IMG/VR virus record: IMGVR_UViG_2913167280_000010 | Span: 1 to 49,852 of that record | Source of the DNA: a virus | Taxonomy: Duplodnaviria; Heunggongvirae; Uroviricota; Caudoviricetes | Strand: one strand, 5' to 3' | DNA length: 49,852 nt | In this document: positions 24,496 to 35,029 of the stretch, piece by piece | How the letters are laid out: each line of letters begins with the position of its first letter | Numbering within the stretch: the stretch's first letter is position 1 | Notes under the pieces: model-generated | The model's database searches: none | Told to the model about the DNA's origin: nothing | The model's input: the letters and a program-made list of their open reading frames with translations, nothing else | Program-made: the position numbers and the translations under genes

Positions 24496-25309
24496 GTTTG
24501 CCCTTCTCCGTTAAAAATTCGTCGGGTAGATTCTGAGGGGCGTAGATCGGCAGTGCATCGCAACTGCAATAAACCTCCTCCCCGGCAGCAGTGATTTCGT
24601 CATAAAAACCATATACGGGCTTAATCAGTCCCTGCTCCAGCGCCCACGAATCGCGGAGGAGATAAATTTTCTCGTCGCGCTCTTTGTGGTCCTGCCGGTA
24701 TTTGTAGCCCGGACGCCGCCAGTTCGAATGCCAGCGCAGAGCAATCGCACCACTCTGAACAGCCAGCAGATACTTAACGTTGCTTGCCAGCTTATGCCCC
24801 TGGTCAATTGCCACCCGGCGACTGATAAAATCCATATCCTTCACGGACTTCTGAAAACCGGACTTCACTTCCCGGCGATCAATTTCGCTCACCCCGTCAG
24901 GCGGAATGGACGTAACCCACCCCTGAAAACGCTGTATGGTTTTCTCGATGGCCTGTTCTCGGTTGAGTTTTATCAGGTTGGCACTGGCGAAAATTCGCCT
25001 GTCGAGTTCCTTGCGAAACTCAGGTTTCAGTTTTTCAACAGTGATTTTTTTAGGGCCGTCAGGAGGCTGATCCCGTAATGCCCCGCCGTCGATGACAAGA
25101 CGGCTGTAGATAGCGGTGAGGTGTTTTCTGGCTACGGTATCATCAGGGGTTTCTCGCTGAGCGGCTACACGGAGTTTCCGGCACCATTCGAGCAATGATT
25201 TTTCGCTATCCCACCCGTGATTTACGTAGTAGTTAACGGCATCCGTCAGAACCTCATACAGCGTCCTGAGCCGTTTCTTCTTCCTCACCGCCCGGCTGGA
25301 AATTGCCAT
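24476..25309 (-). CDS. Head morphogenesis/minor head protein (about 277 aa)
   Basis: Track ORF 24476..25447 trimmed to the ATG at 25309 with AGGAGA RBS; follows the portal gene. Confidence 0.4.
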   Translation of the reverse strand: MAISSRAVRKKKRLRTLYEVLTDAVNYYVNHGWDSEKSLLEWCRKLRVAAQRETPDDTVARKHLTAIYSRLVIDGGALRDQPPDGPKKITVEKLKPEFRKELDRRIFASANLIKLNREQAIEKTIQRFQGWVTSIPPDGVSEIDRREVKSGFQKSVKDMDFISRRVAIDQGHKLASNVKYLLAVQSGAIALRWHSNWRRPGYKYRQDHKERDEKIYLLRDSWALEQGLIKPVYGFYDEITAAGEEVYCSCDALPIYAPQNLPDEFLTEKGKREFNRA

Positions 25310-26690
25310 CAGGCGTCTCCTGCTTCGGTGGTTCATAATTCGCCAGCGCGTCCACATCAATGATGAGTGGAGCTTCGCCATAGGTTTGCGTGGCATTAAC
25401 AAGGCTTGCCAGCCATTCAGCGAGGGCGGCGCGGTTTTCAGGATCAACCTGTGGCGACACAGCAGAGAAAAGTGCTATCGCCTGTTGAATCACTTTACTG
25501 TCGCTTTCCCGGCGTTTGTCCGGCGACTCCTCAACCAGTTCCTGCCACGTCGCGGTAAATTCACGTCGCCACTGGTAAAACGTGGTTTTATAGTCGTCGG
25601 TTATGATGTCCGGGTAATCATTTTTCAGCGACTGATAAAATTCCTCGTTCCAGGCGATGTACTGCACCAGGCGTTCGAAATAATCCATCACAGGTTCAAT
25701 CTGCTGGCGTACACCATCGATATACTGGCTGATAGCTTTCGAGTCCTCCTTACCTTCACCGAATCCGTTACTGAACGCTTCTTCCTTGATAATAATGGCC
25801 GGAACGTCACTCCCGGCGGCAATATCAGCAATGATGTTGTCGCGGGATGTATTCAGCGCCCCGTCGATGTTTTGCAGGTTCAGTGAACTTACGTCTTCGT
25901 CTTTTCCAATACTCAACACGCCTTTATTTTTGGCGGCTTTCACGTTTTCCCTTTTACGCCCCGTGGCAGCAGCCATGATCCCGTCAATTTTCGAACCGTT
26001 CTGCACAACTTTAGCCACCAGTACGCCTGCCTTCTGGCTGACGAGATCATTCGCCTCCATCGTATTGATATAGGATTTCAGGGAATAAAGAACTCGCTGA
26101 AACACGCTTCGCCCGGTGAATCCGAACGATGAACTCTGAAACTCCAGATAAATCGGTGTGCCGTTGAAGATTTTCAGTGTGCGTGACGGATGCCAGTCTT
26201 TTCCGCCAATCTTCAGTTTTTTATTGGCTTCCTGGAAAAACGGGCTGTTGGGGTTCTGGTCAGTCACCATCGAACCGGAAGCGTTCAACGGGTCCCACGC
26301 GTTGATATACACGTCATCTTCTGTCAGTCCGAACGTCGGAAGCGGCTCACGACATGAAACACTGTCGGTGCCCACGCCGATCGCTGCGGCACCGTAGCAA
26401 CGAGACAGAAAAAACAGATTTTTAATCTTCTCGTTAACCTTCATACGTTCCCATACCTCCTGGAAACGCCGCACAACCCGCTCGTCAGGGTCTGTCTCCA
26501 CGTTGTACTGGCGCGGCTTACACATCGCCATCAGTATGGGTTTTTCGACAAGTTTCCCGCCCAACGGGTGGTACTGCCACAGCAGCTTACACAATTCATA
26601 GCCGATATCGGTTCCCGGCTGAATTTCTTCAGCCTCAAGAATACGCATCAGTGCCGAACCGAGGCCGCCAGTAATCTCGATCTCTGCCAT
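25254..26690 (-). CDS. Portal protein (candidate)
   Basis: About 478 aa, directly downstream of terL; acidic C-terminus. Confidence 0.55.
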   Translation of the reverse strand: MAEIEITGGLGSALMRILEAEEIQPGTDIGYELCKLLWQYHPLGGKLVEKPILMAMCKPRQYNVETDPDERVVRRFQEVWERMKVNEKIKNLFFLSRCYGAAAIGVGTDSVSCREPLPTFGLTEDDVYINAWDPLNASGSMVTDQNPNSPFFQEANKKLKIGGKDWHPSRTLKIFNGTPIYLEFQSSSFGFTGRSVFQRVLYSLKSYINTMEANDLVSQKAGVLVAKVVQNGSKIDGIMAAATGRKRENVKAAKNKGVLSIGKDEDVSSLNLQNIDGALNTSRDNIIADIAAGSDVPAIIIKEEAFSNGFGEGKEDSKAISQYIDGVRQQIEPVMDYFERLVQYIAWNEEFYQSLKNDYPDIITDDYKTTFYQWRREFTATWQELVEESPDKRRESDSKVIQQAIALFSAVSPQVDPENRAALAEWLASLVNATQTYGEAPLIIDVDALANYEPPKQETPDGNFQPGGEEEETAQDAV

Positions 26691-26708
26691 CAAAAATATC
26701 CTGATTTT

Positions 26709-28037
26709 TTACAACGCCGCGTAATTACCGTGCGCGATGATCAACCCATAGGTGTAACAATCGAAAAGGTCATCAGCACGTTTATGCGCATCTTTGTCTG
26801 CCAGGTGGAACCCGGCGATTTGTTTTATGAGGTGGTTTGCGGTGGTGCGTTTGAATGAAACGGTCTTGTCGTAAGCCTCCCGGACGATTTTGCACATCCC
26901 CTGATAGTGGTAGCTGGATGCCATCACCGCCCGTTCGTCTTTGCCCTTGCTGGTTAGTGCCGATTTAATCGGCGTCATATCCCAGCCTTCGGTTTCCGCC
27001 TTCTGGTTGAGAATTGCCCCCATCGCGGCGTCTTCCATAAAAATTCCCTGGCTGCCCAGACGCGGACGGCATAATTTCGCGAGGCGCTCGAGGTTGTCAT
27101 AAACGCCGGGGATATATTCAGGAAGCAATGACGCTTTAATTTGCGTCACATCCCAGTCAATAATCGTCAGTTTTGGCTCGTCCGAATACGTTGACTCATA
27201 AGCGAAATACACCACGCCAGTACCATCATTTTCGGTCCCGCCTTTCAGCGCCGTATCCATCACTGCGAAAATCATGTCGCAGTGCGGCGGCATCTCAATC
27301 GGCTGACCGTCCACCAGCAGCTTATCGACATCGAGTAACGCATCTTTGGACCAGTCCACGAACTCGGCAAGATATTCCTGCTGCCAGACACGCGGATCGG
27401 ATTTCTTCTCCGTTTCCTCCAGTTCTTCTTTCGGAATATACGGATTCGATGAAGTTGGCGCATGGTGCATGACAAATCCCAGGGATTCATCGTGGCATAT
27501 CGCGTAGAAAAAATTGCTCTCGTCGATACCGTTTGGTGTGGAAAATACCCACGCACAGCCGCGGTAATCGACAAGCGTCGGGCGTATCGCTCGGGGCCAG
27601 ATTTCCTCGAGCATTTCCGGCGATTTAGTGAATGCGGCCTCATCAATCAGCACAGCGTGATATTTACGCCCACGCCCGGCCAGTTTGTTATTGTCCGTTA
27701 CCCAAAAGTCGATGCGCCCCCCATTACGGAGAATGATGCGCTTTTCATTTTTTGACTGACTGAGGATCAGCGGTTGCAGAACGGCGCTAATTTCATCCCA
27801 GATTTCCTGGTACTGGCGGTATTGCGCGGTAAAAATCCCCACCCTACCCGCGATAAGTTGCCCGGTGGTAGGAACGGCAAATTTCCGCGTAGCGAAACTG
27901 GTAGCGATGTTCACCAGCATCACCGTTTTACCCCAGCGACGACCACAGCATACCGCGTGGAAGCGTTCCTCTATTGCCGCCGTCCATGCAGCTATTTGCC
28001 CCTCATGAGGTTTTGGGAGGTAGATTTCAATCGACAT
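26709..28037 (-). CDS. Terminase large subunit
   Basis: 442 aa; Walker A-like CCGRRWGKT near the N-terminus; overlaps the terS stop. Confidence 0.8.
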   Translation of the reverse strand: MSIEIYLPKPHEGQIAAWTAAIEERFHAVCCGRRWGKTVMLVNIATSFATRKFAVPTTGQLIAGRVGIFTAQYRQYQEIWDEISAVLQPLILSQSKNEKRIILRNGGRIDFWVTDNNKLAGRGRKYHAVLIDEAAFTKSPEMLEEIWPRAIRPTLVDYRGCAWVFSTPNGIDESNFFYAICHDESLGFVMHHAPTSSNPYIPKEELEETEKKSDPRVWQQEYLAEFVDWSKDALLDVDKLLVDGQPIEMPPHCDMIFAVMDTALKGGTENDGTGVVYFAYESTYSDEPKLTIIDWDVTQIKASLLPEYIPGVYDNLERLAKLCRPRLGSQGIFMEDAAMGAILNQKAETEGWDMTPIKSALTSKGKDERAVMASSYHYQGMCKIVREAYDKTVSFKRTTANHLIKQIAGFHLADKDAHKRADDLFDCYTYGLIIAHGNYAAL

Positions 28038-29118
28038 TATCCACTCCCGGCATCGGCAGAGAGTTGTGGATAATTATTTCGTTATTCTCACCACCCACGC
28101 CTTTTTTGAGGTTTTCAATCTCAGTGCGCAGCTTTTCGTTGCGAAGCCTCAGTCCTTCAAGCTCCAGATCATTGCGACTGTCAGTTGCACCACCAGCAGA
28201 ACTTCCTTTCGTCGCCATTATCAGCTTGATAAGTTCGCGCCGGGCGGCAGCCTTATCCTCCAGCAGGATCTCAACACCAAATTTCCCGAGCTTTGCCCCT
28301 GCATATAATTGTCGCGCATCCCCATCAAGCAGAGTGGTATCAGCCATATAAAGCTGTCCCGTTCCCTCACCGCAGCACTTCGGACAATCCGGATTGGGTA
28401 TGGCGTTATCAACAAAGCCAAGGCCTCCATATTCCGGCTCGGATTTGCCATCTCTGGAGGCCTGTGCCGCTGCCTTATCGAATTCTGCAATATCACGCCA
28501 CTGGTAGAGGTGATTCTCGCCCCAGCAATAACGGCAGTTAACACGGCGAAATTGTGCCAACTGATTGGGGTCGGCCTGGACAATGGCCATCAACTGACTC
28601 ACCAGTAAATCCAGGTCTGCGGTATAGCGTTTCTGGTACTGATTGCGGAACCATGAGATAGCCCGATAAACCTTAACATTTCTTAACAGACGTGAGGCTG
28701 CGGCACTTGCTACGTTTCCCGTTCCCTCGTAACCCGCTAGGCGGTATGCCTCGATGAGGTTTTTACCCTGCGCAACCAGCATGGCGAATTTTGCCTGCTG
28801 GTCAGAAATGCCGAATTCATCGGGACAGAATGAAATTTCCTCCACGTCGCCCTCATTCAGGCACGCATCGGATACTGACTTTTTTTTCTGAGATTTTCCG
28901 TTCCGCTTTTGCGCAGTCTGCGCAAATTTTTTCTGCGCACTTTTTTGCGCAGTTTTGCGCACTTCTGTCTGCGCATTTTTCGGAGGTTTTTTGATGTAAC
29001 GACGGGCTGTTGCGTAATTCAATCCCCTTGCTTCACACCATGCCACCGGAGATATACCGGAGCGGGTGTATTCAGCAATATACTCCTGCTGCAACGCCCC
29101 CCAGTCCGGTCTGCTCAT
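28027..29118 (-). CDS. Terminase small subunit (HTH plus terS core plus zinc ribbon)
   Basis: 363 aa; terS-type motif QQAKFAMLVAQGKNLIEAYRLAGYEG...ASRLL; CxxC...CxxC pairs; contains a TGCGCA array. Confidence 0.65.
   Translation of the reverse strand: MSRPDWGALQQEYIAEYTRSGISPVAWCEARGLNYATARRYIKKPPKNAQTEVRKTAQKSAQKKFAQTAQKRNGKSQKKKSVSDACLNEGDVEEISFCPDEFGISDQQAKFAMLVAQGKNLIEAYRLAGYEGTGNVASAAASRLLRNVKVYRAISWFRNQYQKRYTADLDLLVSQLMAIVQADPNQLAQFRRVNCRYCWGENHLYQWRDIAEFDKAAAQASRDGKSEPEYGGLGFVDNAIPNPDCPKCCGEGTGQLYMADTTLLDGDARQLYAGAKLGKFGVEILLEDKAAARRELIKLIMATKGSSAGGATDSRNDLELEGLRLRNEKLRTEIENLKKGVGGENNEIIIHNSLPMPGVDNVD
28910..28975. repeat. Array of six palindromic TGCGCA hexamers at 10-15 bp spacing inside terS (candidate pac or terS-binding site)
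   Basis: TGCGCA at about 28910, 28919, 28934, 28946, 28956 and 28970, each flanked by T-runs. Confidence 0.5.
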
Positions 29119-29121
29119 CAG

Positions 29122-29331
29122 TTAGTCCTGATTTTTATCCACCCTGAGTAGTTCGCGCAGGGCAAAGGCATCCCCTTTTCTGGCAAGCTTAAACAATGCC
29201 GCCCGTATCTCGGCTTCACCTTTCGCTCTGCCCTTACGGATGGACGTGTAAAAATTTGTCATTGCTTCCCGATTTTCTTTCAGTCGGTTCAGATCAACAT
29301 CCAGAACGTCAGCGATTTGTTGTGCAGTCAT
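29122..29331 (-). CDS. Small HTH-like protein (about 69 aa; start alternatively at 29373)
   Basis: ORF between the GT-A-like gene and terS; MTAQQIADVLDV... helix-turn-helix-like N-terminus. Confidence 0.4.
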   Translation of the reverse strand: MTAQQIADVLDVDLNRLKENREAMTNFYTSIRKGRAKGEAEIRAALFKLARKGDAFALRELLRVDKNQD

Positions 29332-30241
29332 CCGGCACGCTGCCAGAGACTCGACTTTCGAATACGGAATCATTTGTCACCCCCATTGATATGCAGGGTG
29401 TCTTCTTCCTGTATTTTTCGTGAAGGATTTTTACTGCAGCGTTGTTCCAGGTGACCTGATGGTGAATGCGTTTATGGCTGGCGCCCATCAGTGAGATTTT
29501 TACGCACGACGGCGCATGCATGACGGAGTAAAAACTTTTAACATAGGTTCCGGAATCCAGATACAGCTCGGTCATTCCGCCGCTGTTTTTCTGCGTCTGT
29601 TTCTGCCCTAACTGGACAGCACCGATCGTCATAAACAATTCACCACAGCGACCGAGATTCGTGTACGTATTCACATCCTCGTTAATGCGCCCCATGAATG
29701 AGAACGGTCGATCAACGGAACAGATAAAACTGTTCATTGCCTTGCGTTTCACCCACGAAGCATGGCCGCCATTGTCACCAAGAAAATCCCCGCCCTGCGA
29801 CATAGCGATGGAAAGCGCAGGTATTGATTCGTAATACGCCAGCATCTCAGAAAGGATCGCATCCAGTTTCCTTATCGGGAAATAGGCCTGGTCATAGTTG
29901 CGATCCACCCGAAACTGGAACTCGTGATAATCATCATCGAGCTGAATGAAGTATTTACACCCGACCAGTTTTACCAGGTCGAAACAGGCATTACGGGCGT
30001 AAAAAATTGAGCGGCGATCACCGAAATTATCGGCTTCGTCAAAACGACTGGCTATATCGGCTTTGGAAAACACCAGCACCTGTTCACCAAATTCAGCTAT
30101 GTACTGATGCCGTGTCTTATCTTCATCATCAACAACGATAAAAACTTTCCCGGTATAGCCAGCACGACGCAACGTCCGGTAAGTCAGAACTTTGTCCGGG
30201 CGCCCGTGAGTCAGAATAAAGGCGCAAAAATCATCACGCAT
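29309..30241 (-). CDS. GT-A-fold-like (DxD) putative glycosyl/nucleotidyl transferase, 310 aa
   Basis: Start ATG overlaps the ParB-like stop (ATGCGTGA) with GGAGG RBS; motifs CAFILTHGRP, KVFIVVDDED, FIQLDDDYHEF. Confidence 0.5.
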   Translation of the reverse strand: MRDDFCAFILTHGRPDKVLTYRTLRRAGYTGKVFIVVDDEDKTRHQYIAEFGEQVLVFSKADIASRFDEADNFGDRRSIFYARNACFDLVKLVGCKYFIQLDDDYHEFQFRVDRNYDQAYFPIRKLDAILSEMLAYYESIPALSIAMSQGGDFLGDNGGHASWVKRKAMNSFICSVDRPFSFMGRINEDVNTYTNLGRCGELFMTIGAVQLGQKQTQKNSGGMTELYLDSGTYVKSFYSVMHAPSCVKISLMGASHKRIHHQVTWNNAAVKILHEKYRKKTPCISMGVTNDSVFESRVSGSVPDDCTTNR

Positions 30242-31025
30242 ATTCCTCCTCCTCCCCGCCATGCATGATCTCCACCATGCGCTGCGTCATCCGGACAAAT
30301 CCATTTTCAATAGCCTGCTGATAATCAATGATCACCAGCGCCGACTCCTCAAAAAGGCTCTGAATTTCAGCGGGGGCGTGAGCGTAATAGTCCGCAATTC
30401 TGCTAAAATTAAACACCGTGTGACGTTCTGCCGCGCACAGGAGGAATTTTTCGATATCAGGCTCAAGGGACGCCGAACGTATCCGGCTGACCAGCTCCTG
30501 AGTTTTCGTATCGTCGTACAGTTCACTGATATCCGGTTTACCGCCCGACGGCTTATAAACAGGCGTATCAATTTTCGTCGTATACGGCTCCTCCTCATTT
30601 CCTGTACCGGGCAAAACATCCGTCAACAACTCATCAATTTCTGTCGGGCTGAAGCCTGTCAGGGAGACATCAAAATCAGCATTGATTAGGTCCGACAGCT
30701 CCATCCGTAACAGATCTTCATCCCAGCCAGCATTCATCGGCAGGCGATTATCTGCCAGGCGGTACGCCTTTTTCTGCTCATCCGTCAGGCCAGACAGAAC
30801 AATGACCGGAACAGAATCCATTTTGAGCATTTCAGCCGCCATAACACGACCGTGACCCGCAATAATTTCGCCCTTTTCGTCAATCAGCACCGGATTAGTC
30901 CAGCCGAATTGCTTTATGCTTTCTACCAGTTGTGCCACCTGTTCAGGGCTGTGTGTCCTGGCGTTGTGTGCATACGGAGACAGTTCTTGTAAAGGGCGAT
31001 AGACGATCTTCAATTTCTCGCTCAT
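30234..31025 (-). CDS. ParB-like nuclease domain protein (ParB/Srx fold), 263 aa
   Basis: N-terminal ParB-N-like region (VYRPLQELSPYAHNARTH...AGHGRVMAA); acidic C-terminus; upstream of terminase. Confidence 0.75.
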   Translation of the reverse strand: MSEKLKIVYRPLQELSPYAHNARTHSPEQVAQLVESIKQFGWTNPVLIDEKGEIIAGHGRVMAAEMLKMDSVPVIVLSGLTDEQKKAYRLADNRLPMNAGWDEDLLRMELSDLINADFDVSLTGFSPTEIDELLTDVLPGTGNEEEPYTTKIDTPVYKPSGGKPDISELYDDTKTQELVSRIRSASLEPDIEKFLLCAAERHTVFNFSRIADYYAHAPAEIQSLFEESALVIIDYQQAIENGFVRMTQRMVEIMHGGEEEEYA

Positions 31026-31892: not shown

Positions 31893-32276
31893 TTATCGTT
31901 TCAACTGAAAGTGAGGCCCGTCTTTCAGTGTTTTCCAGTCCCCGCCCCATTCGATGGCAGTTCCCAGCTCTGCGGCAGCCTGCTTAAATGCCTGCGCGAT
32001 TTTCTCGTACAGAGGCCAGTCCCATGACACCTGGCTGCCAATGTAGGCAACAACATCCACCGCATCACCGGTCAGGTGGCGGCTGTTCATGGTCTGGCTT
32101 TTCCCTTCCGCGACCAGCTGTTTCTGGCGATACTTACTGCGCAGGCCTTCCGTAATACCGAAATCAACCTCCGTCAGCTCCAGCGCACGGCGAACTACAG
32201 CAACCAGCTGTGGTTTGACTCCATCCAGATTTTTTTCACTGCGACGGCTGAATCTGAATTTACCCGACATATTCAC
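31893..32276 (-). CDS. Endolysin, peptidase M15-like (L-alanyl-D-glutamate peptidase type)
   Basis: 127 aa; SRHLTGDAVD zinc-binding-type motif and C-terminal DGPHFQ; follows two membrane-protein genes. Confidence 0.7.
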   Translation of the reverse strand: MNMSGKFRFSRRSEKNLDGVKPQLVAVVRRALELTEVDFGITEGLRSKYRQKQLVAEGKSQTMNSRHLTGDAVDVVAYIGSQVSWDWPLYEKIAQAFKQAAAELGTAIEWGGDWKTLKDGPHFQLKR

Positions 32277-33687: not shown

Positions 33688-33762
<75 letters not shown>

Positions 33763-33765
33763 ATA

Positions 33766-33841
<76 letters not shown>

Positions 33842-34205: not shown

Positions 34206-34742
34206 TTAAGCATAATCGAACGCTTCTCTCATAGGTGAATACAAAATGAACTCAGCAACACGCAACCACTGATCAACACGACGTCGGCATGTAATCAACG
34301 CCCACTCTGGGTACTGTTCGTTTAATAACTCTGCCATCCTTCTCTTACTCATCCCTCGCCCTACATAACGCTGACTCAGGACATTTAGTAGTCCTGGATG
34401 ATCCGCCAGAACTTCACCTATAACACTATCAATTTTTAGTGCCTCTGCATCAGTGCAGTGAGTTAACCAGCTTTTTTGCTTTCCTTCGATCATCTCACGC
34501 AAAAATGCTTCCAACTCTGGTTTATCAATTCCCGCTTTTTTCAATCTGCGCAGGGCTTCATTGATGGCTGTTTTTGTCATTTTTTGGGATGCCAGCAACT
34601 GGTTAAACATATTCCCTGACCTGCCGCCGCCAATATACGACCAGCGCCCCCACATACGTAGTTTTCCCTGAATCCAGACACTTTCCAGCGTGGTGAGACG
34701 AAGGTGTTCTCCGCTTTTTCCTGTATTCGTTGGGTAAATCAT
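34206..34742 (-). CDS. Late-gene antiterminator Q
   Basis: Track ORF trimmed to the ATG at 34742 with AGGAGGG RBS; position upstream of the pR'/tR' region, tRNAs and lysis genes. Confidence 0.65.
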   Translation of the reverse strand: MIYPTNTGKSGEHLRLTTLESVWIQGKLRMWGRWSYIGGGRSGNMFNQLLASQKMTKTAINEALRRLKKAGIDKPELEAFLREMIEGKQKSWLTHCTDAEALKIDSVIGEVLADHPGLLNVLSQRYVGRGMSKRRMAELLNEQYPEWALITCRRRVDQWLRVAEFILYSPMREAFDYA

Positions 34743-35029
34743 AAATATCCCTCCTTTCTCCAGATTTCTTGTGTGCGAAAAACACCTTCTGCATGCATCA
34801 GGCGTAATTCTTCTTTGGTGTAATCGCTGGTTTTTACCCGCCCGTCGATTAAATCGTGGCACGAGCTACAGGCAATCGCTGCCTGCATATCGTGTGGCTT
34901 TATCGCTGTTCCGCACGTTCCCGCCAGTCGGTAATGCGCCAGCACAGACGTTTCCGGATCGTGATTGCAGTAGCCAGGAATTCTGACAGTGCACATCTGC
35001 CCCCGCGCCGCTTTACGTAAGTCCACCAT
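34739..35029 (-). CDS. YbcO-like small putative nuclease (DUF1364-like), 96 aa
   Basis: Cys-rich pattern (C..C...C..C) and nin-region position directly upstream of Q. Confidence 0.55.
   Translation of the reverse strand: MVDLRKAARGQMCTVRIPGYCNHDPETSVLAHYRLAGTCGTAIKPHDMQAAIACSSCHDLIDGRVKTSDYTKEELRLMHAEGVFRTQEIWRKEGYL

What the first reader, a model, noticed from the sequence alone, without database searches (positions are those of the whole stretch)
29309..31025. Translationally coupled ParB-like plus GT-A-like gene pair immediately upstream of terS
The ParB/Srx-fold protein (30234..31025) ends in ...EEEYA and its stop overlaps the start of a 310-aa protein (ATGCGTGA). The second protein has a hydrophobic strand CAFILTHGRP, an acidic KVFIVVDDED and a FIQLDDDYHEF DxD-like motif, which suggests a GT-A-type nucleotide-sugar transferase fold. 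ParB-like genes next to terminase are known with PAPS-reductase-like partners (IbrA/IbrB) or fused to methyltransferases. I cannot match a ParB-like plus GT-A-like pairing to a characterised system. It could be a DNA base-modification or anti-restriction module, or a regulator.
Basis: partly seen in the sequence, partly recalled or inferred. Interest (0 to 1): 0.6.

Follow-up and report, generated by a model that had tools for sequence, protein, structure and literature searches.

The report
Phage ParB-adaptor plus TAGT glycosyltransferase pair
Two overlapping late genes of a Rac-like E. coli prophage encode a ParB-type adaptor and a glycosyltransferase of the family that sugar-coats phage DNA; the two always travel together in viruses of bacteria and archaea, but without any enzyme that makes the usual hydroxymethyl acceptor, so what they glycosylate is open and easy to test.

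Summary
On the minus strand, a 263-aa ParB/Srx protein (31025..30234, PGAP name ynaK) overlaps by 8 nt (ATGCGTGA) a 310-aa protein (30241..29309). The 310-aa protein is a GT-A glycosyltransferase of Pfam TAGT (PF20691) and phrog_842, the same families as phage T6 beta-glucosyl-HMC-alpha-glucosyltransferase.

The pair opens the packaging part of the late operon of a Rac-type prophage. Near-complete copies occur in 857 of 5426 complete E. coli genomes.

The same two-gene module occurs across bacterial phyla and in an archaeal virus:
- In 53 of 55 species-level loci the partner gene lies directly upstream; across 56 scored pairs, 45 overlap by 8 or 11 nt.
- No third gene is conserved, and no TET/JBP or hydroxymethylase appears.
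- The constant part of the partner is a disordered Y[TS]xKIxxPxY motif plus an acidic helical C-terminal domain.
- Some phages keep only that part, in replication modules. One protein fuses TAGT and the ParB partner.

Best reading (about 50%): a ParB-adaptor-dependent DNA glycosyltransferase acting before packaging, with an unknown, non-canonical acceptor. The families are known, but this system has no experimental characterisation that I could find. It is a new variant of a known kind, with moderately high interest.

The parts
30234..31025 (-). ParB/Srx-type partner protein (YnaK-like), 263 aa. It has an NTP-binding domain, a helical segment, a disordered linker and an acidic helical C-terminal domain.
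   Evidence: Pfam ParB_N 9.8e-7, above the cut-off; phrog_620 1.8e-90. Foldseek to Noc, ParB, PadC and KorB. PGAP names it ynaK / ParB/Srx family. pI 4.55, net charge -23.
30606..31025 (-). ParB NTP-binding domain plus helical segment (aa 1-140). It has GHGR in place of GERR, and N93 in the position of the ENxQR box.
   Evidence: HMMER alignment to Noc/ParB structures: IIAGhGR against IIAGERR, laDN against liEN. The same module matches phrog_498 'DNA methyltransferase' at 1.5e-51 and PADLOC MTase_II at 8.2e-39. It occurs in 449 phage records, mostly fused to methylases.
30555..30584 (-). Conserved linker motif YTTKIDTPVY (aa 148-157; consensus Y-[TS]-x-K-[IVT]-x-x-P-x-Y) within a disordered stretch.
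   Evidence: Invariant columns Y148, T149, K151, P155 and Y157. pLDDT is below 50 over aa 136-164. The motif is found in 47 of 56 partners across phyla, including the short partners that lack the ParB domain.
30237..30500 (-). Acidic helical C-terminal domain (aa 176-263). Together with the linker it is the part of the partner that is always kept.
   Evidence: tblastn of aa 141-263 hits only phages that also carry this TAGT, always directly upstream of it. phmmer finds 1194 representatives at 50% identity, almost always with the match C-terminal. It is fused with TAGT in P0363.
30234..30241 (-). 8-nt stop/start overlap (ATGCGTGA) implying translational coupling.
   Evidence: Read directly from the sequence. 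45 of 56 diverse pairs overlap by 8 or 11 nt.
29309..30241 (-). TAGT-family GT-A glycosyltransferase ('GREB1-related protein'), 310 aa.
29930..29938 (-). DDD (DxD-type) metal/nucleotide-sugar motif, D102-D104.
   Evidence: Invariant in 26 homologues. Also invariant in an alignment with T6 ggt, haloarchaeal, Vibrio and Lachnospiraceae members.
29675..29680 (-). E188-D189 of the NEDVNTY motif, the second catalytic signature of DNA-type GT-A enzymes.
   Evidence: Invariant. It corresponds to the R...DDD...ED[Y/F] signature described for phage 5hmC glycosyltransferases and the base-J glucosyltransferase (bioRxiv 10.1101/2023.12.21.572611).
29122..29373 (-). 83-aa ORF with a terS-like segment, between the glycosyltransferase and the 363-aa terS. 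This is context, not part of the conserved pair.
   Evidence: phrog_309 1.3e-21. It is present at position +1 only in the Enterobacterales loci (cluster 7, 7 loci).
26709..29118 (-). terS (29118..28027) and terL (28037..26709), the packaging genes directly downstream (context).
   Evidence: Pfam Terminase_2 3.5e-9 and phrog_51 6.4e-67 for terS; Terminase_6N and phrog_2 for terL.

Best explanation
The two genes form a self-contained, two-component phage modification module.

**Enzyme.** The 310-aa protein is an active GT-A glycosyltransferase of the TAGT family, the family of phage and kinetoplastid DNA-base sugar transferases.

**Adaptor.** The ParB-like protein is its dedicated adaptor or activator. 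Its conserved linker motif plus acidic C-terminal domain holds the enzyme. Its ParB NTP-binding domain is the same module that phages fuse to DNA methyltransferases. By inference it couples the enzyme to double-stranded phage DNA, as ParB does for the ParB-dependent thymine dioxygenases.

**Timing.** The pair is made from the Q-dependent late operon just before terminase. It would therefore add sugar to replicated phage DNA shortly before or during packaging, shielding the DNA from restriction or other nucleases in the next host.

**Acceptor.** No enzyme that makes 5-hydroxymethyl-pyrimidines accompanies the pair. The acceptor must therefore differ from that of all characterised TAGTs and is unknown.

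**Shown:** family membership, fold, catalytic motifs, obligate pairing, translational coupling, purifying selection, and absence of a conserved third gene.

**Inferred:** physical interaction, DNA as substrate, timing, and the protective role.
For: 1. **Family.** Pfam TAGT 3.5e-34 and phrog_842 2.5e-102. T6 ggt, a characterised DNA glucosyltransferase, falls in the same Pfam and PHROG and shares the invariant DDD and ED residues. The GT-A fold is confirmed.
2. **Obligate pairing.** The partner lies directly upstream in 53 of 55 species-level loci from many phyla. It does the same in HK97-like, lambda-like, T7-like and SPP1-like packaging modules and in a haloarchaeal virus. 45 of 56 overlaps are 8 or 11 nt.
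3. **Reciprocity.** The linker plus C-terminal domain is found only in TAGT-bearing phages, directly upstream of the TAGT gene.
4. **Fusion.** P0363 carries TAGT, the ParB domain, the linker motif and the C-terminal domain in one chain.
5. **No third partner.** No other neighbour family occurs in more than 15 of 58 loci. The recurrent ones are terminases, portals and replication genes. No Tet_JBP or thymidylate-synthase-like family recurs. None is present in this prophage or in the complete genomes of phages c5 and phi jlb1.
6. **DNA context.**
   - Short-adaptor versions sit between DNA polymerase A and a sliding clamp (L119), or among SSB, primase and helicase genes (Vibrio phage pv27).
   - The ParB N-domain is mostly fused to DNA methylases in 449 phage records (PADLOC MTase_II 8e-39).
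   - The TAGT family is basic (median pI 8.8, aa 231-290 carry +8), whereas the partner is very acidic.
7. **Precedent.** Phage ParB proteins with the same NBD, disordered linker and CTD architecture, and no DNA-binding domain, are required for a thymine dioxygenase to act on dsDNA (PMC13229309).
8. **Selection and late-operon position**.
Against: - Every characterised TAGT-family DNA enzyme transfers sugar to a hydroxyl of 5hmC, 5hmU or an attached glucose. Canonical DNA offers no such hydroxyl, and no hydroxymethylating enzyme is present.
- One family member, GREB1, glycosylates a protein (PMC7968844).
- The partner lacks a recognisable DNA-binding domain and is strongly acidic.
- The catalytic Glu of the ParB GERR box is replaced by His.
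- In the dioxygenase system, NTP-site mutations had no effect, so the ParB mechanism is itself unclear.
- No complex could be modelled here.
- The AF2 model of the enzyme's C-terminal third and of the partner's C-terminal domain is of low confidence.
- I found no report of modified DNA for any phage carrying the pair.
Confidence: 0.5

Rival explanations
1. Protein glycosylation. The glycosyltransferase O-glycosylates the partner itself, at the invariant Ser/Thr or Tyr of the Y[TS]xKIxxPxY linker motif, or another phage or host protein. GREB1 does this for ER-alpha, and glycogenin does it on its own tyrosine. The ParB-like protein would then be substrate or primer rather than DNA adaptor.
For: - The most conserved element of the partner is a disordered peptide. 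Its second position is always Ser or Thr and it is flanked by two invariant Tyr.
- This pattern fits an acceptor site as well as a docking motif.
- GREB1, of the same family, is a protein O-GlcNAc transferase.
- Canonical DNA has no known acceptor hydroxyl.
Against: - There is no obvious reason for viruses of bacteria and archaea to conserve a self-glycosylating pair at replication and packaging modules.
- The ParB N-domain is otherwise attached to DNA-modifying enzymes.
- The motif's prolines and hydrophobic positions are typical of docking peptides.
Confidence: 0.17
2. Small-molecule or RNA target. The enzyme glycosylates a nucleotide, a signalling molecule or an RNA, for example as a counter-defence. 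The ParB/Srx domain would bind the nucleotide.
For: - ParB/Srx folds bind CTP, ATP or GTP, and some are small-molecule enzymes such as Srx and SerK (PMC12704722; Foldseek hits).
- No DNA acceptor is evident.
Against: - Adaptors lacking the ParB domain still pair with the enzyme, so nucleotide binding by ParB is not essential to the pair.
- The gene context is DNA replication or packaging, not known anti-defence islands.
- PADLOC gives no hit for the enzyme.
Confidence: 0.1
3. Classical TAGT role with the acceptor supplied in trans. The enzyme glycosylates 5hmC or 5hmU made by an unlinked phage or host gene, or adds a second sugar to an existing glycosyl base.
For: - Family precedent: T2/T6 ggt acts on glucosyl-5hmC, and phage GT-A enzymes act on 5hmC.
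- A few loci carry C5-methylases upstream (cluster 19, 5 loci).
Against: - No TET/JBP, dCMP/dUMP hydroxymethylase or alpha/beta-GT occurs in this whole prophage.
- None occurs in the complete genomes of phages c5 and phi jlb1.
- None recurs among neighbours of 58 diverse loci.
- From general knowledge, E. coli DNA contains no hydroxymethyl-pyrimidines.
Confidence: 0.06
4. Packaging or partition accessory or regulator. The ParB-like protein acts in pac/cos recognition, prophage maintenance or transcription control. The glycosyltransferase would be an unrelated moron, for example acting on the cell envelope.
For: - The pair lies directly upstream of terS in most temperate phages.
- Older annotations call the protein 'partitioning protein' or 'transcriptional regulator'.
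Against: - The strict co-occurrence, conserved overlap and a natural fusion argue that the two act together.
- There is no ParA partner, no HTH domain and no membrane segments.
- The pair moves between unrelated terminase types and into replication modules.
Confidence: 0.07

Closest known systems
ParB-dependent phage thymine dioxygenases (5mYOX176/ParB176; O'Toole et al., PNAS 2026, PMC13229309)
   Same: - A phage ParB homologue with an NTP-binding domain, a roughly 50-aa disordered linker and a C-terminal domain, but no DNA-binding domain.
- It is encoded next to a DNA-modifying enzyme, is specific for its cognate enzyme and is needed for action on dsDNA.
- The genes are often near terminase.
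   Different: - The enzyme here is a GT-A glycosyltransferase, not an Fe/2OG dioxygenase, and no dioxygenase is present.
- Here the linker motif plus C-terminal domain can exist without the ParB domain.
Phage T2/T6 beta-glucosyl-HMC-alpha-glucosyltransferase (ggt) and the 5hmC-specific GT-A enzymes of metaviromes (Pyle et al. 2024)
   Same: - Same Pfam (PF20691) and same PHROG (842).
- GT-A fold.
- Invariant DDD and ED catalytic residues.
   Different: - Those enzymes work without a ParB partner, on 5hmC or glucosyl-5hmC made by a hydroxymethylase or by MT plus TET.
- The window enzyme belongs to a distinct, tightly conserved subfamily. It has extra conserved segments (DEADNFGDRR, SQGGD, RKAMN, GGMTELYLDSGTYVKSFY, RIHH) and no source of hydroxymethyl bases.
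- Identity to T6 ggt is only 15%.
ParB-N::DNA methyltransferase fusions of phages and prophages (phrog_498; PADLOC MTase_II profile)
   Same: - The first 140 residues are closely similar (1.5e-51 and 8e-39).
- They have the same genomic niche in temperate phages.
- The logic is the same: a ParB module joined to a DNA-modifying enzyme.
   Different: - There the effector is covalently fused and is a methylase.
- Here the effector is a separate, translationally coupled glycosyltransferase, held (by inference) through a dedicated motif and C-terminal domain.
Base-J glucosyltransferase (JGT) and animal GREB1
   Same: Same TAGT-type GT-A superfamily. The R...DDD...ED signature is as described and PMC7968844.
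   Different: - JGT needs JBP-made 5hmU.
- GREB1 is a large multidomain protein that O-GlcNAcylates a protein.
- Neither has a ParB partner.
   Same: A ParB-like protein paired with an enzyme in prophages.
   Different: - The enzyme partner is of an unrelated fold.
- No homology was tested or claimed.
- It is only an analogy of organisation, recalled from memory.

Membership tests
TAGT (PF20691, TET-associated glycosyltransferase / GREB1-related) | Profile match above the curated threshold | tested here: met
   119 bits against a cut-off of 27.5, E 3.5e-34, covering profile positions 4-205 of 205. phrog_842 2.5e-102.
TAGT (PF20691) | GT-A (nucleotide-diphospho-sugar transferase) fold | tested here: met
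TAGT (PF20691) | Catalytic R...DDD...ED signature shared with DNA-base glycosyltransferases | tested here: met
   R14, D102-D104 and E188-D189 are invariant in the subfamily. DDD and ED are also invariant with T6 ggt. R14 has no aligned counterpart in T6 ggt.
TAGT (PF20691) | Genomic association with TET/JBP, or with another enzyme that makes hydroxymethyl-pyrimidines | tested here: not met
   None in the window or sister prophages. None recurs in 58 diverse loci. None in the complete genomes of phages c5 and phi jlb1.
TAGT (PF20691) | Sugar transfer to 5hmC, 5hmU or glucosyl-5hmC in DNA | not testable with these tools
   Requires biochemistry or nucleoside mass spectrometry.
ParB/Srx N-terminal domain (PF02195) | Profile match and fold | tested here: met
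   29.2 bits against a cut-off of 26.3. Foldseek E 1.5e-6 to Noc, ParB, PadC and KorB. HMMER hits to ParB/Noc structures.
Canonical partition ParB (TIGR00180-type CTPase clamp) | GERR box with catalytic Glu; phosphate-binding Arg and Asn | tested here: inconclusive
   R60 and N93 are conserved, but Glu is replaced by the nearly invariant H58 (GHGR). TIGR00180 scores 38.8 bits, below its cut-off of 58.45.
Canonical partition ParB | Central HTH DNA-binding domain, parS site and ParA partner | tested here: not met
   No HTH family is detected. Residues 101-263 are strongly acidic. No ParA is annotated in sister prophages. No parS-like repeats occur near the genes.
ParB-dependent phage DNA-modification systems (5mYOX/ParB type) | ParB with NBD, disordered linker and CTD, no DNA-binding domain, encoded next to its cognate DNA-modifying enzyme | tested here: met
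   Architecture. Adjacency and co-occurrence.
ParB-dependent phage DNA-modification systems (5mYOX/ParB type) | The cognate enzyme is a 5-methylpyrimidine dioxygenase | tested here: not met
   The cognate enzyme is a TAGT glycosyltransferase.
ParB-dependent phage DNA-modification systems (5mYOX/ParB type) | The enzyme requires ParB for activity on dsDNA | not testable with these tools
   Requires co-expression or an in vitro assay.
IbrA/IbrB-type pairs | PAPS-reductase-like partner next to the ParB-like gene | tested here: not met
   The neighbour is TAGT, and no PAPS-reductase family hit was found.

The most novel reading that the evidence does not exclude
The pair is an adaptor-dependent enzyme that attaches a sugar directly to canonical, non-hydroxymethylated DNA, on a base nitrogen or oxygen, the backbone or a DNA end. 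That would be a kind of DNA modification not yet described. It would be made by temperate phages of most bacterial phyla and of haloarchaea, and by prophages in about one in six sequenced E. coli genomes. A new short docking module (Y[TS]xKIxxPxY plus an acidic helical domain) would deliver the enzyme.
Probability: 0.25. Interest if true: 0.9.

Novelty: new variant of a known kind. Interest (0 to 1): 0.62.

Why it matters
**An unsolved class of phage enzymes.** Solitary TAGT glycosyltransferases are numerous in phages. A 2026 survey counted 288 of 753 GT-bearing phage genomes with a TAGT homologue but no alpha- or beta-glucosyltransferase, and their function is still undefined (PMC13216743).

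**What this analysis adds.** A large, coherent subgroup of these enzymes is not solitary at all.
- It is locked to a ParB-type adaptor.
- It needs no hydroxymethylating enzyme.
- It sits at the replication or packaging step.

**If the target is DNA:**
- The chemistry must be new.
- The system would extend the recently discovered principle that phages use ParB proteins to drive DNA-modifying enzymes.
- It could explain restriction or defence evasion by common temperate phages.

**If the target is the partner protein,** it would be a new viral protein-glycosylation system.

**Testability.** Either way the system is directly testable in E. coli. Intact copies sit in inducible-looking Rac-type prophages of ordinary strains, including E. 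coli W-lineage genomes among the near-complete matches.

Tried and rejected
- **Sequence search of the PDB** with the TAGT profile found nothing.
- **hhalign of the shallow TAGT alignment against the single T6 ggt sequence** gave no signal. The relationship was shown instead through shared Pfam and PHROG membership and a multiple alignment.
- **The afdb50 fold library was unavailable**, so the reported structural similarity of phage GT-A enzymes to JGT could not be re-tested here.
- **Iyer et al. 2013**, which named TAGT, could not be opened. What I say about it rests on citations and on memory.
- **Supplementary sequences of ParB176 were not held**, so homology of its C-terminal domain to this one is untested.
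- **Literature searches** for ynaK, HHTV-2 DNA modification, accessory-gene screens and the family names found no experimental work on the pair.
- **PADLOC** has no model for the enzyme.
- **A search for parS-like repeats** around the genes found nothing convincing.
- **NCBIfam** gave only sub-threshold ParB hits.
- **The IMG/VR scan** returned mostly near-identical E. coli relatives. Diversity came from the species-level genome scan instead.
- **A hidden third partner was considered and rejected.** Neighbours were clustered and 238 non-redundant neighbours were scanned with Pfam. Families hit by a single neighbour were only partly listed, so a rare TET/JBP cannot be excluded.
Full report
**What is there**

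On the minus strand the window carries the late region of a Rac-type lambdoid prophage. The right end has intR, xisR, recET and kilR relatives, and sister copies sit next to ttcA. Reading in the direction of transcription, the order is:
- a Q-like antiterminator (34862..34206);
- tRNA-Thr and tRNA-Gly (33841..33688);
- holins and an M15 endolysin (32276..31893);
- the two genes of the finding;
- an 83-aa terS-like ORF;
- terS, terL and the portal gene.

The first gene of the finding (31025..30234) encodes 263 aa ending GGEEEEYA. The second (30241..29309) encodes 310 aa starting MRDDFCAFILTHGRP. Stop and start overlap as ATGCGTGA. The exception is the small ORF (29373..29122) that lies between the second gene and the 363-aa terS.

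**Identity of the two proteins**

The 310-aa protein:
- It is a full-length match to Pfam TAGT, the TET-associated glycosyltransferase family (3.5e-34), and to phrog_842 (2.5e-102). Current RefSeq annotation calls it 'GREB1-related protein'.
- Phage T6 beta-glucosyl-HMC-alpha-glucosyltransferase is an enzyme of known activity. It falls in the same Pfam family and the same PHROG. In a multiple alignment it shares Y47, R83, D102-D104 and E188-D189 with the window protein.

The 263-aa protein:
- It has a ParB/Srx N-terminal domain (Pfam above threshold; phrog_620 1.8e-90; Foldseek to Noc, ParB, PadC and KorB).
- Aligned to ParB and Noc structures, its GHGR corresponds to GERR. The phosphate-binding Arg (R60) and the Asn of the third box (N93) are kept. 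The Glu needed for CTP hydrolysis is a nearly invariant His.
- After a helical segment comes a stretch predicted to be disordered (aa 136-164). It carries an almost invariant peptide, YTTKIDTPVY. An acidic helical C-terminal domain follows.
- RefSeq names the gene ynaK. The K-12 ynaK is the truncated remnant of this gene.

**How common and how conserved**

- Near-complete copies of the 2.4-kb region occur in 857 of 5426 complete E. coli genomes, and partial copies in 1653.
- Of 80 related viral contigs, 73 keep both genes full length.
- Against orthologues from other genera, dN is 0.14-0.36 while dS is saturated, which indicates purifying selection.

**The pair is a module**

- Homologues with 60-65% identity, from unrelated phages, have the same ParB-like gene directly upstream and a terminase downstream. 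The terminases are of different types: HK97-like TerL, lambda GpA, Terminase_3 and T7-like.
- A scan of one genome per species returned 55 loci. They come from Proteobacteria, Bacteroidota, Firmicutes, Acidobacteriota, Actinobacteria, Saccharibacteria and an archaeon.
- A profile of the window's partner protein finds a homologue ending at the start of the glycosyltransferase gene in 53 of them. The other two are truncated by a contig end or by gene decay.
- In 45 of 56 pairs the overlap is 8 or 11 nt.
- When all neighbouring genes are clustered, only these two families are universal. The next most frequent family is in 15 of 58 loci. The recurrent families are terminases, portals, SSB, VRR-NUC, DnaB and methylases.
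- Pfam scans of 238 non-redundant neighbours showed no TET/JBP or thymidylate-synthase-like family among those hit more than once.
- This prophage has none either. Nor do the complete genomes of Lactobacillus phages c5 and phi jlb1. In c5 the pair is ORF1-ORF2, 90 nt from the cos end.

**Which part of the partner matters**

- The N-terminal 137 residues alone hit 449 phage records, and most of the listed matches are annotated as DNA methyltransferases. They match a methyltransferase PHROG and a PADLOC methyltransferase profile very strongly.
- In contrast, the linker plus C-terminal domain hits only 28 phage records. All 28 also have this glycosyltransferase, and the hit is always directly upstream of it.
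- Several phages have a partner of only 131-153 aa, consisting of the linker motif and the C-terminal domain without any ParB domain.
  - In a Lachnospiraceae prophage this short partner and the enzyme lie between DNA polymerase A and a sliding-clamp gene.
  - In 190-kb Vibrio phages they lie among SSB, exonuclease, primase and helicase genes.
- An exhaustive search with the linker plus C-terminal domain found 1194 representatives at 50% identity. Nearly all have the match at the C-terminus of 250-300-aa proteins.
- One representative, P0363 (534 aa), has a TAGT domain, a ParB domain, the linker motif and the C-terminal domain in a single chain.
- Together with the conserved translational coupling, this supports the two proteins acting as one unit. 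The motif and C-terminal domain are the likely contact. The contact itself is inferred, not shown.

**Mechanism**

The closest characterised system is the ParB-dependent thymine dioxygenase of phages.
- There a ParB homologue has the same three-part architecture and no DNA-binding domain.
- It is specific for its cognate enzyme and is needed only on double-stranded DNA.
- The authors suggest it stabilises the enzyme on DNA like a clamp (PMC13229309).

By analogy, I propose that the window's pair is an adaptor-dependent DNA glycosyltransferase made late, just before packaging. Supporting points:
- All characterised phage TAGT-family enzymes act on DNA bases.
- The ParB N-domain is otherwise attached to DNA methylases.
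- The pair sits at replication and packaging genes.
- One locus has a TAGT fused to a SAM-methyltransferase domain.
- The enzyme family is basic (median pI 8.8, with a +8 C-terminal segment), while the partner is very acidic (pI 4.5, charge -23).

The difficulty is the acceptor. Known family members glycosylate the hydroxyl of 5hmC, 5hmU or an attached glucose, and nothing here can make those. Three possibilities follow: a different position on canonical DNA is used, which would be new chemistry; the target is not DNA; or an unlinked source of hydroxymethyl bases exists, which is unlikely.

The subfamily has conserved segments absent from T6 ggt (DEADNFGDRR, SQGGD, RKAMN, GGMTELYLDSGTYVKSFY, RIHH). 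These are consistent with a different acceptor site.

**Rivals**

- The most serious rival is protein glycosylation. The second position of the linker motif is always Ser or Thr and is flanked by invariant tyrosines. That pattern fits an acceptor as well as a docking peptide. GREB1, of the same family, glycosylates a protein.
- Small-molecule or RNA targets, and a pure packaging or regulatory role for the ParB-like protein, are less likely. The reasons are the ParB-less adaptors, the fusion and the mobility of the pair between unrelated packaging systems.

My estimates are about 0.5 for DNA glycosylation of some kind, about half of which would be modification of canonical DNA. I give 0.17 for protein glycosylation. 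The remainder is spread over the other rivals.

**Comparison with what is known, and novelty**

- Both families are named and annotated.
- The association of ParB with phage DNA-modification genes has been noted before.
- Solitary TAGTs have been flagged as of undefined function.
- I found no experimental work on this pair. I also found no description of its obligate pairing, of the motif plus C-terminal-domain adaptor, of the ParB-less variants or of the fusion.

I therefore rate it a new variant of a known kind. The novelty lies in the adaptor, the absence of a hydroxymethylating step and the unknown acceptor, not in the folds. It is attractive because it is abundant in E. coli and can be tested with a two-gene plasmid and nucleoside mass spectrometry.

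**Limits**

- No complex model could be made.
- The models of the enzyme's C-terminal third and of the partner's C-terminal domain are of low confidence.
- Gene calls in the comparative loci are my own simple ORF calls.
- Rare single occurrences of TET/JBP near some loci cannot be excluded.
- The fusion protein is a single metagenomic representative.

Noticed in passing
window 28910-28975 (inside the 5' part of terS, minus-strand gene 29118..28027): Six copies of the palindrome TGCGCA lie within 66 nt, against 28 in the whole 49.8-kb window (about 0.045 expected per 80 nt). This is a candidate pac / terS-binding site about 330 nt downstream of the glycosyltransferase stop.
   Followed up: partly
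window 29122-29373 (-): An 83-aa ORF between the glycosyltransferase and the 363-aa terS matches a terminase-small-subunit PHROG (phrog_309, 1.3e-21). It overlaps the glycosyltransferase 3' end by 65 nt. The Escherichia glycosyltransferase has a C-terminal extension of about 20 aa, absent in other genera, that covers this overlap.
   Followed up: partly
window 25254-26693 (-); L001 16355-17791: RefSeq annotates the 479-aa protein in the portal position as 'anti-CBASS protein Acb1 family protein' in a sister prophage. That is an odd name for a protein of this size and position. I did not check it.
   Followed up: no
window 33688-33841 (-): tRNA-Gly(tcc) and tRNA-Thr(tgt) lie between the Q-like antiterminator gene and the holins, at the head of the late operon.
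   Followed up: no
L133 2614-6161 (Hyphomonadaceae MAG): The gene order is ParB-like, then a 564-aa TAGT fused to a SAM-methyltransferase domain, then a second TAGT. This suggests further decoration of the product in some lineages.
   Followed up: partly
L112 2970-5117; L119 7306-11962: In L112, two TAGT paralogues flank a 134-aa adaptor that lacks the ParB domain. In L119 the order is DNA polymerase A, short adaptor, TAGT, sliding clamp.
   Followed up: partly
P0363 (metagenomic protein, 534 aa): A single chain carries TAGT, the ParB N-domain, the linker motif and the C-terminal domain. I did not examine its genomic context.
   Followed up: partly
L100 10875-11447: A second, 190-aa ParB_N protein is encoded directly after the glycosyltransferase in a Faecousia MAG.
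   Followed up: no
E. coli K-12 ynaK (remnant of the ParB-like gene; not in this window): In a 2026 overexpression screen the truncated K-12 ynaK raised the MICs of six antibiotics 3- to 6-fold (PMC12924614). The mechanism is unknown, and its relevance to the intact gene is unknown.
   Followed up: no
L001 1144-2304 (sister prophage, tail region): A gene annotated 'type I restriction endonuclease' sits among baseplate and tail genes of the sister prophage. I did not check whether the window has the same insert near 9127-10365.
   Followed up: no
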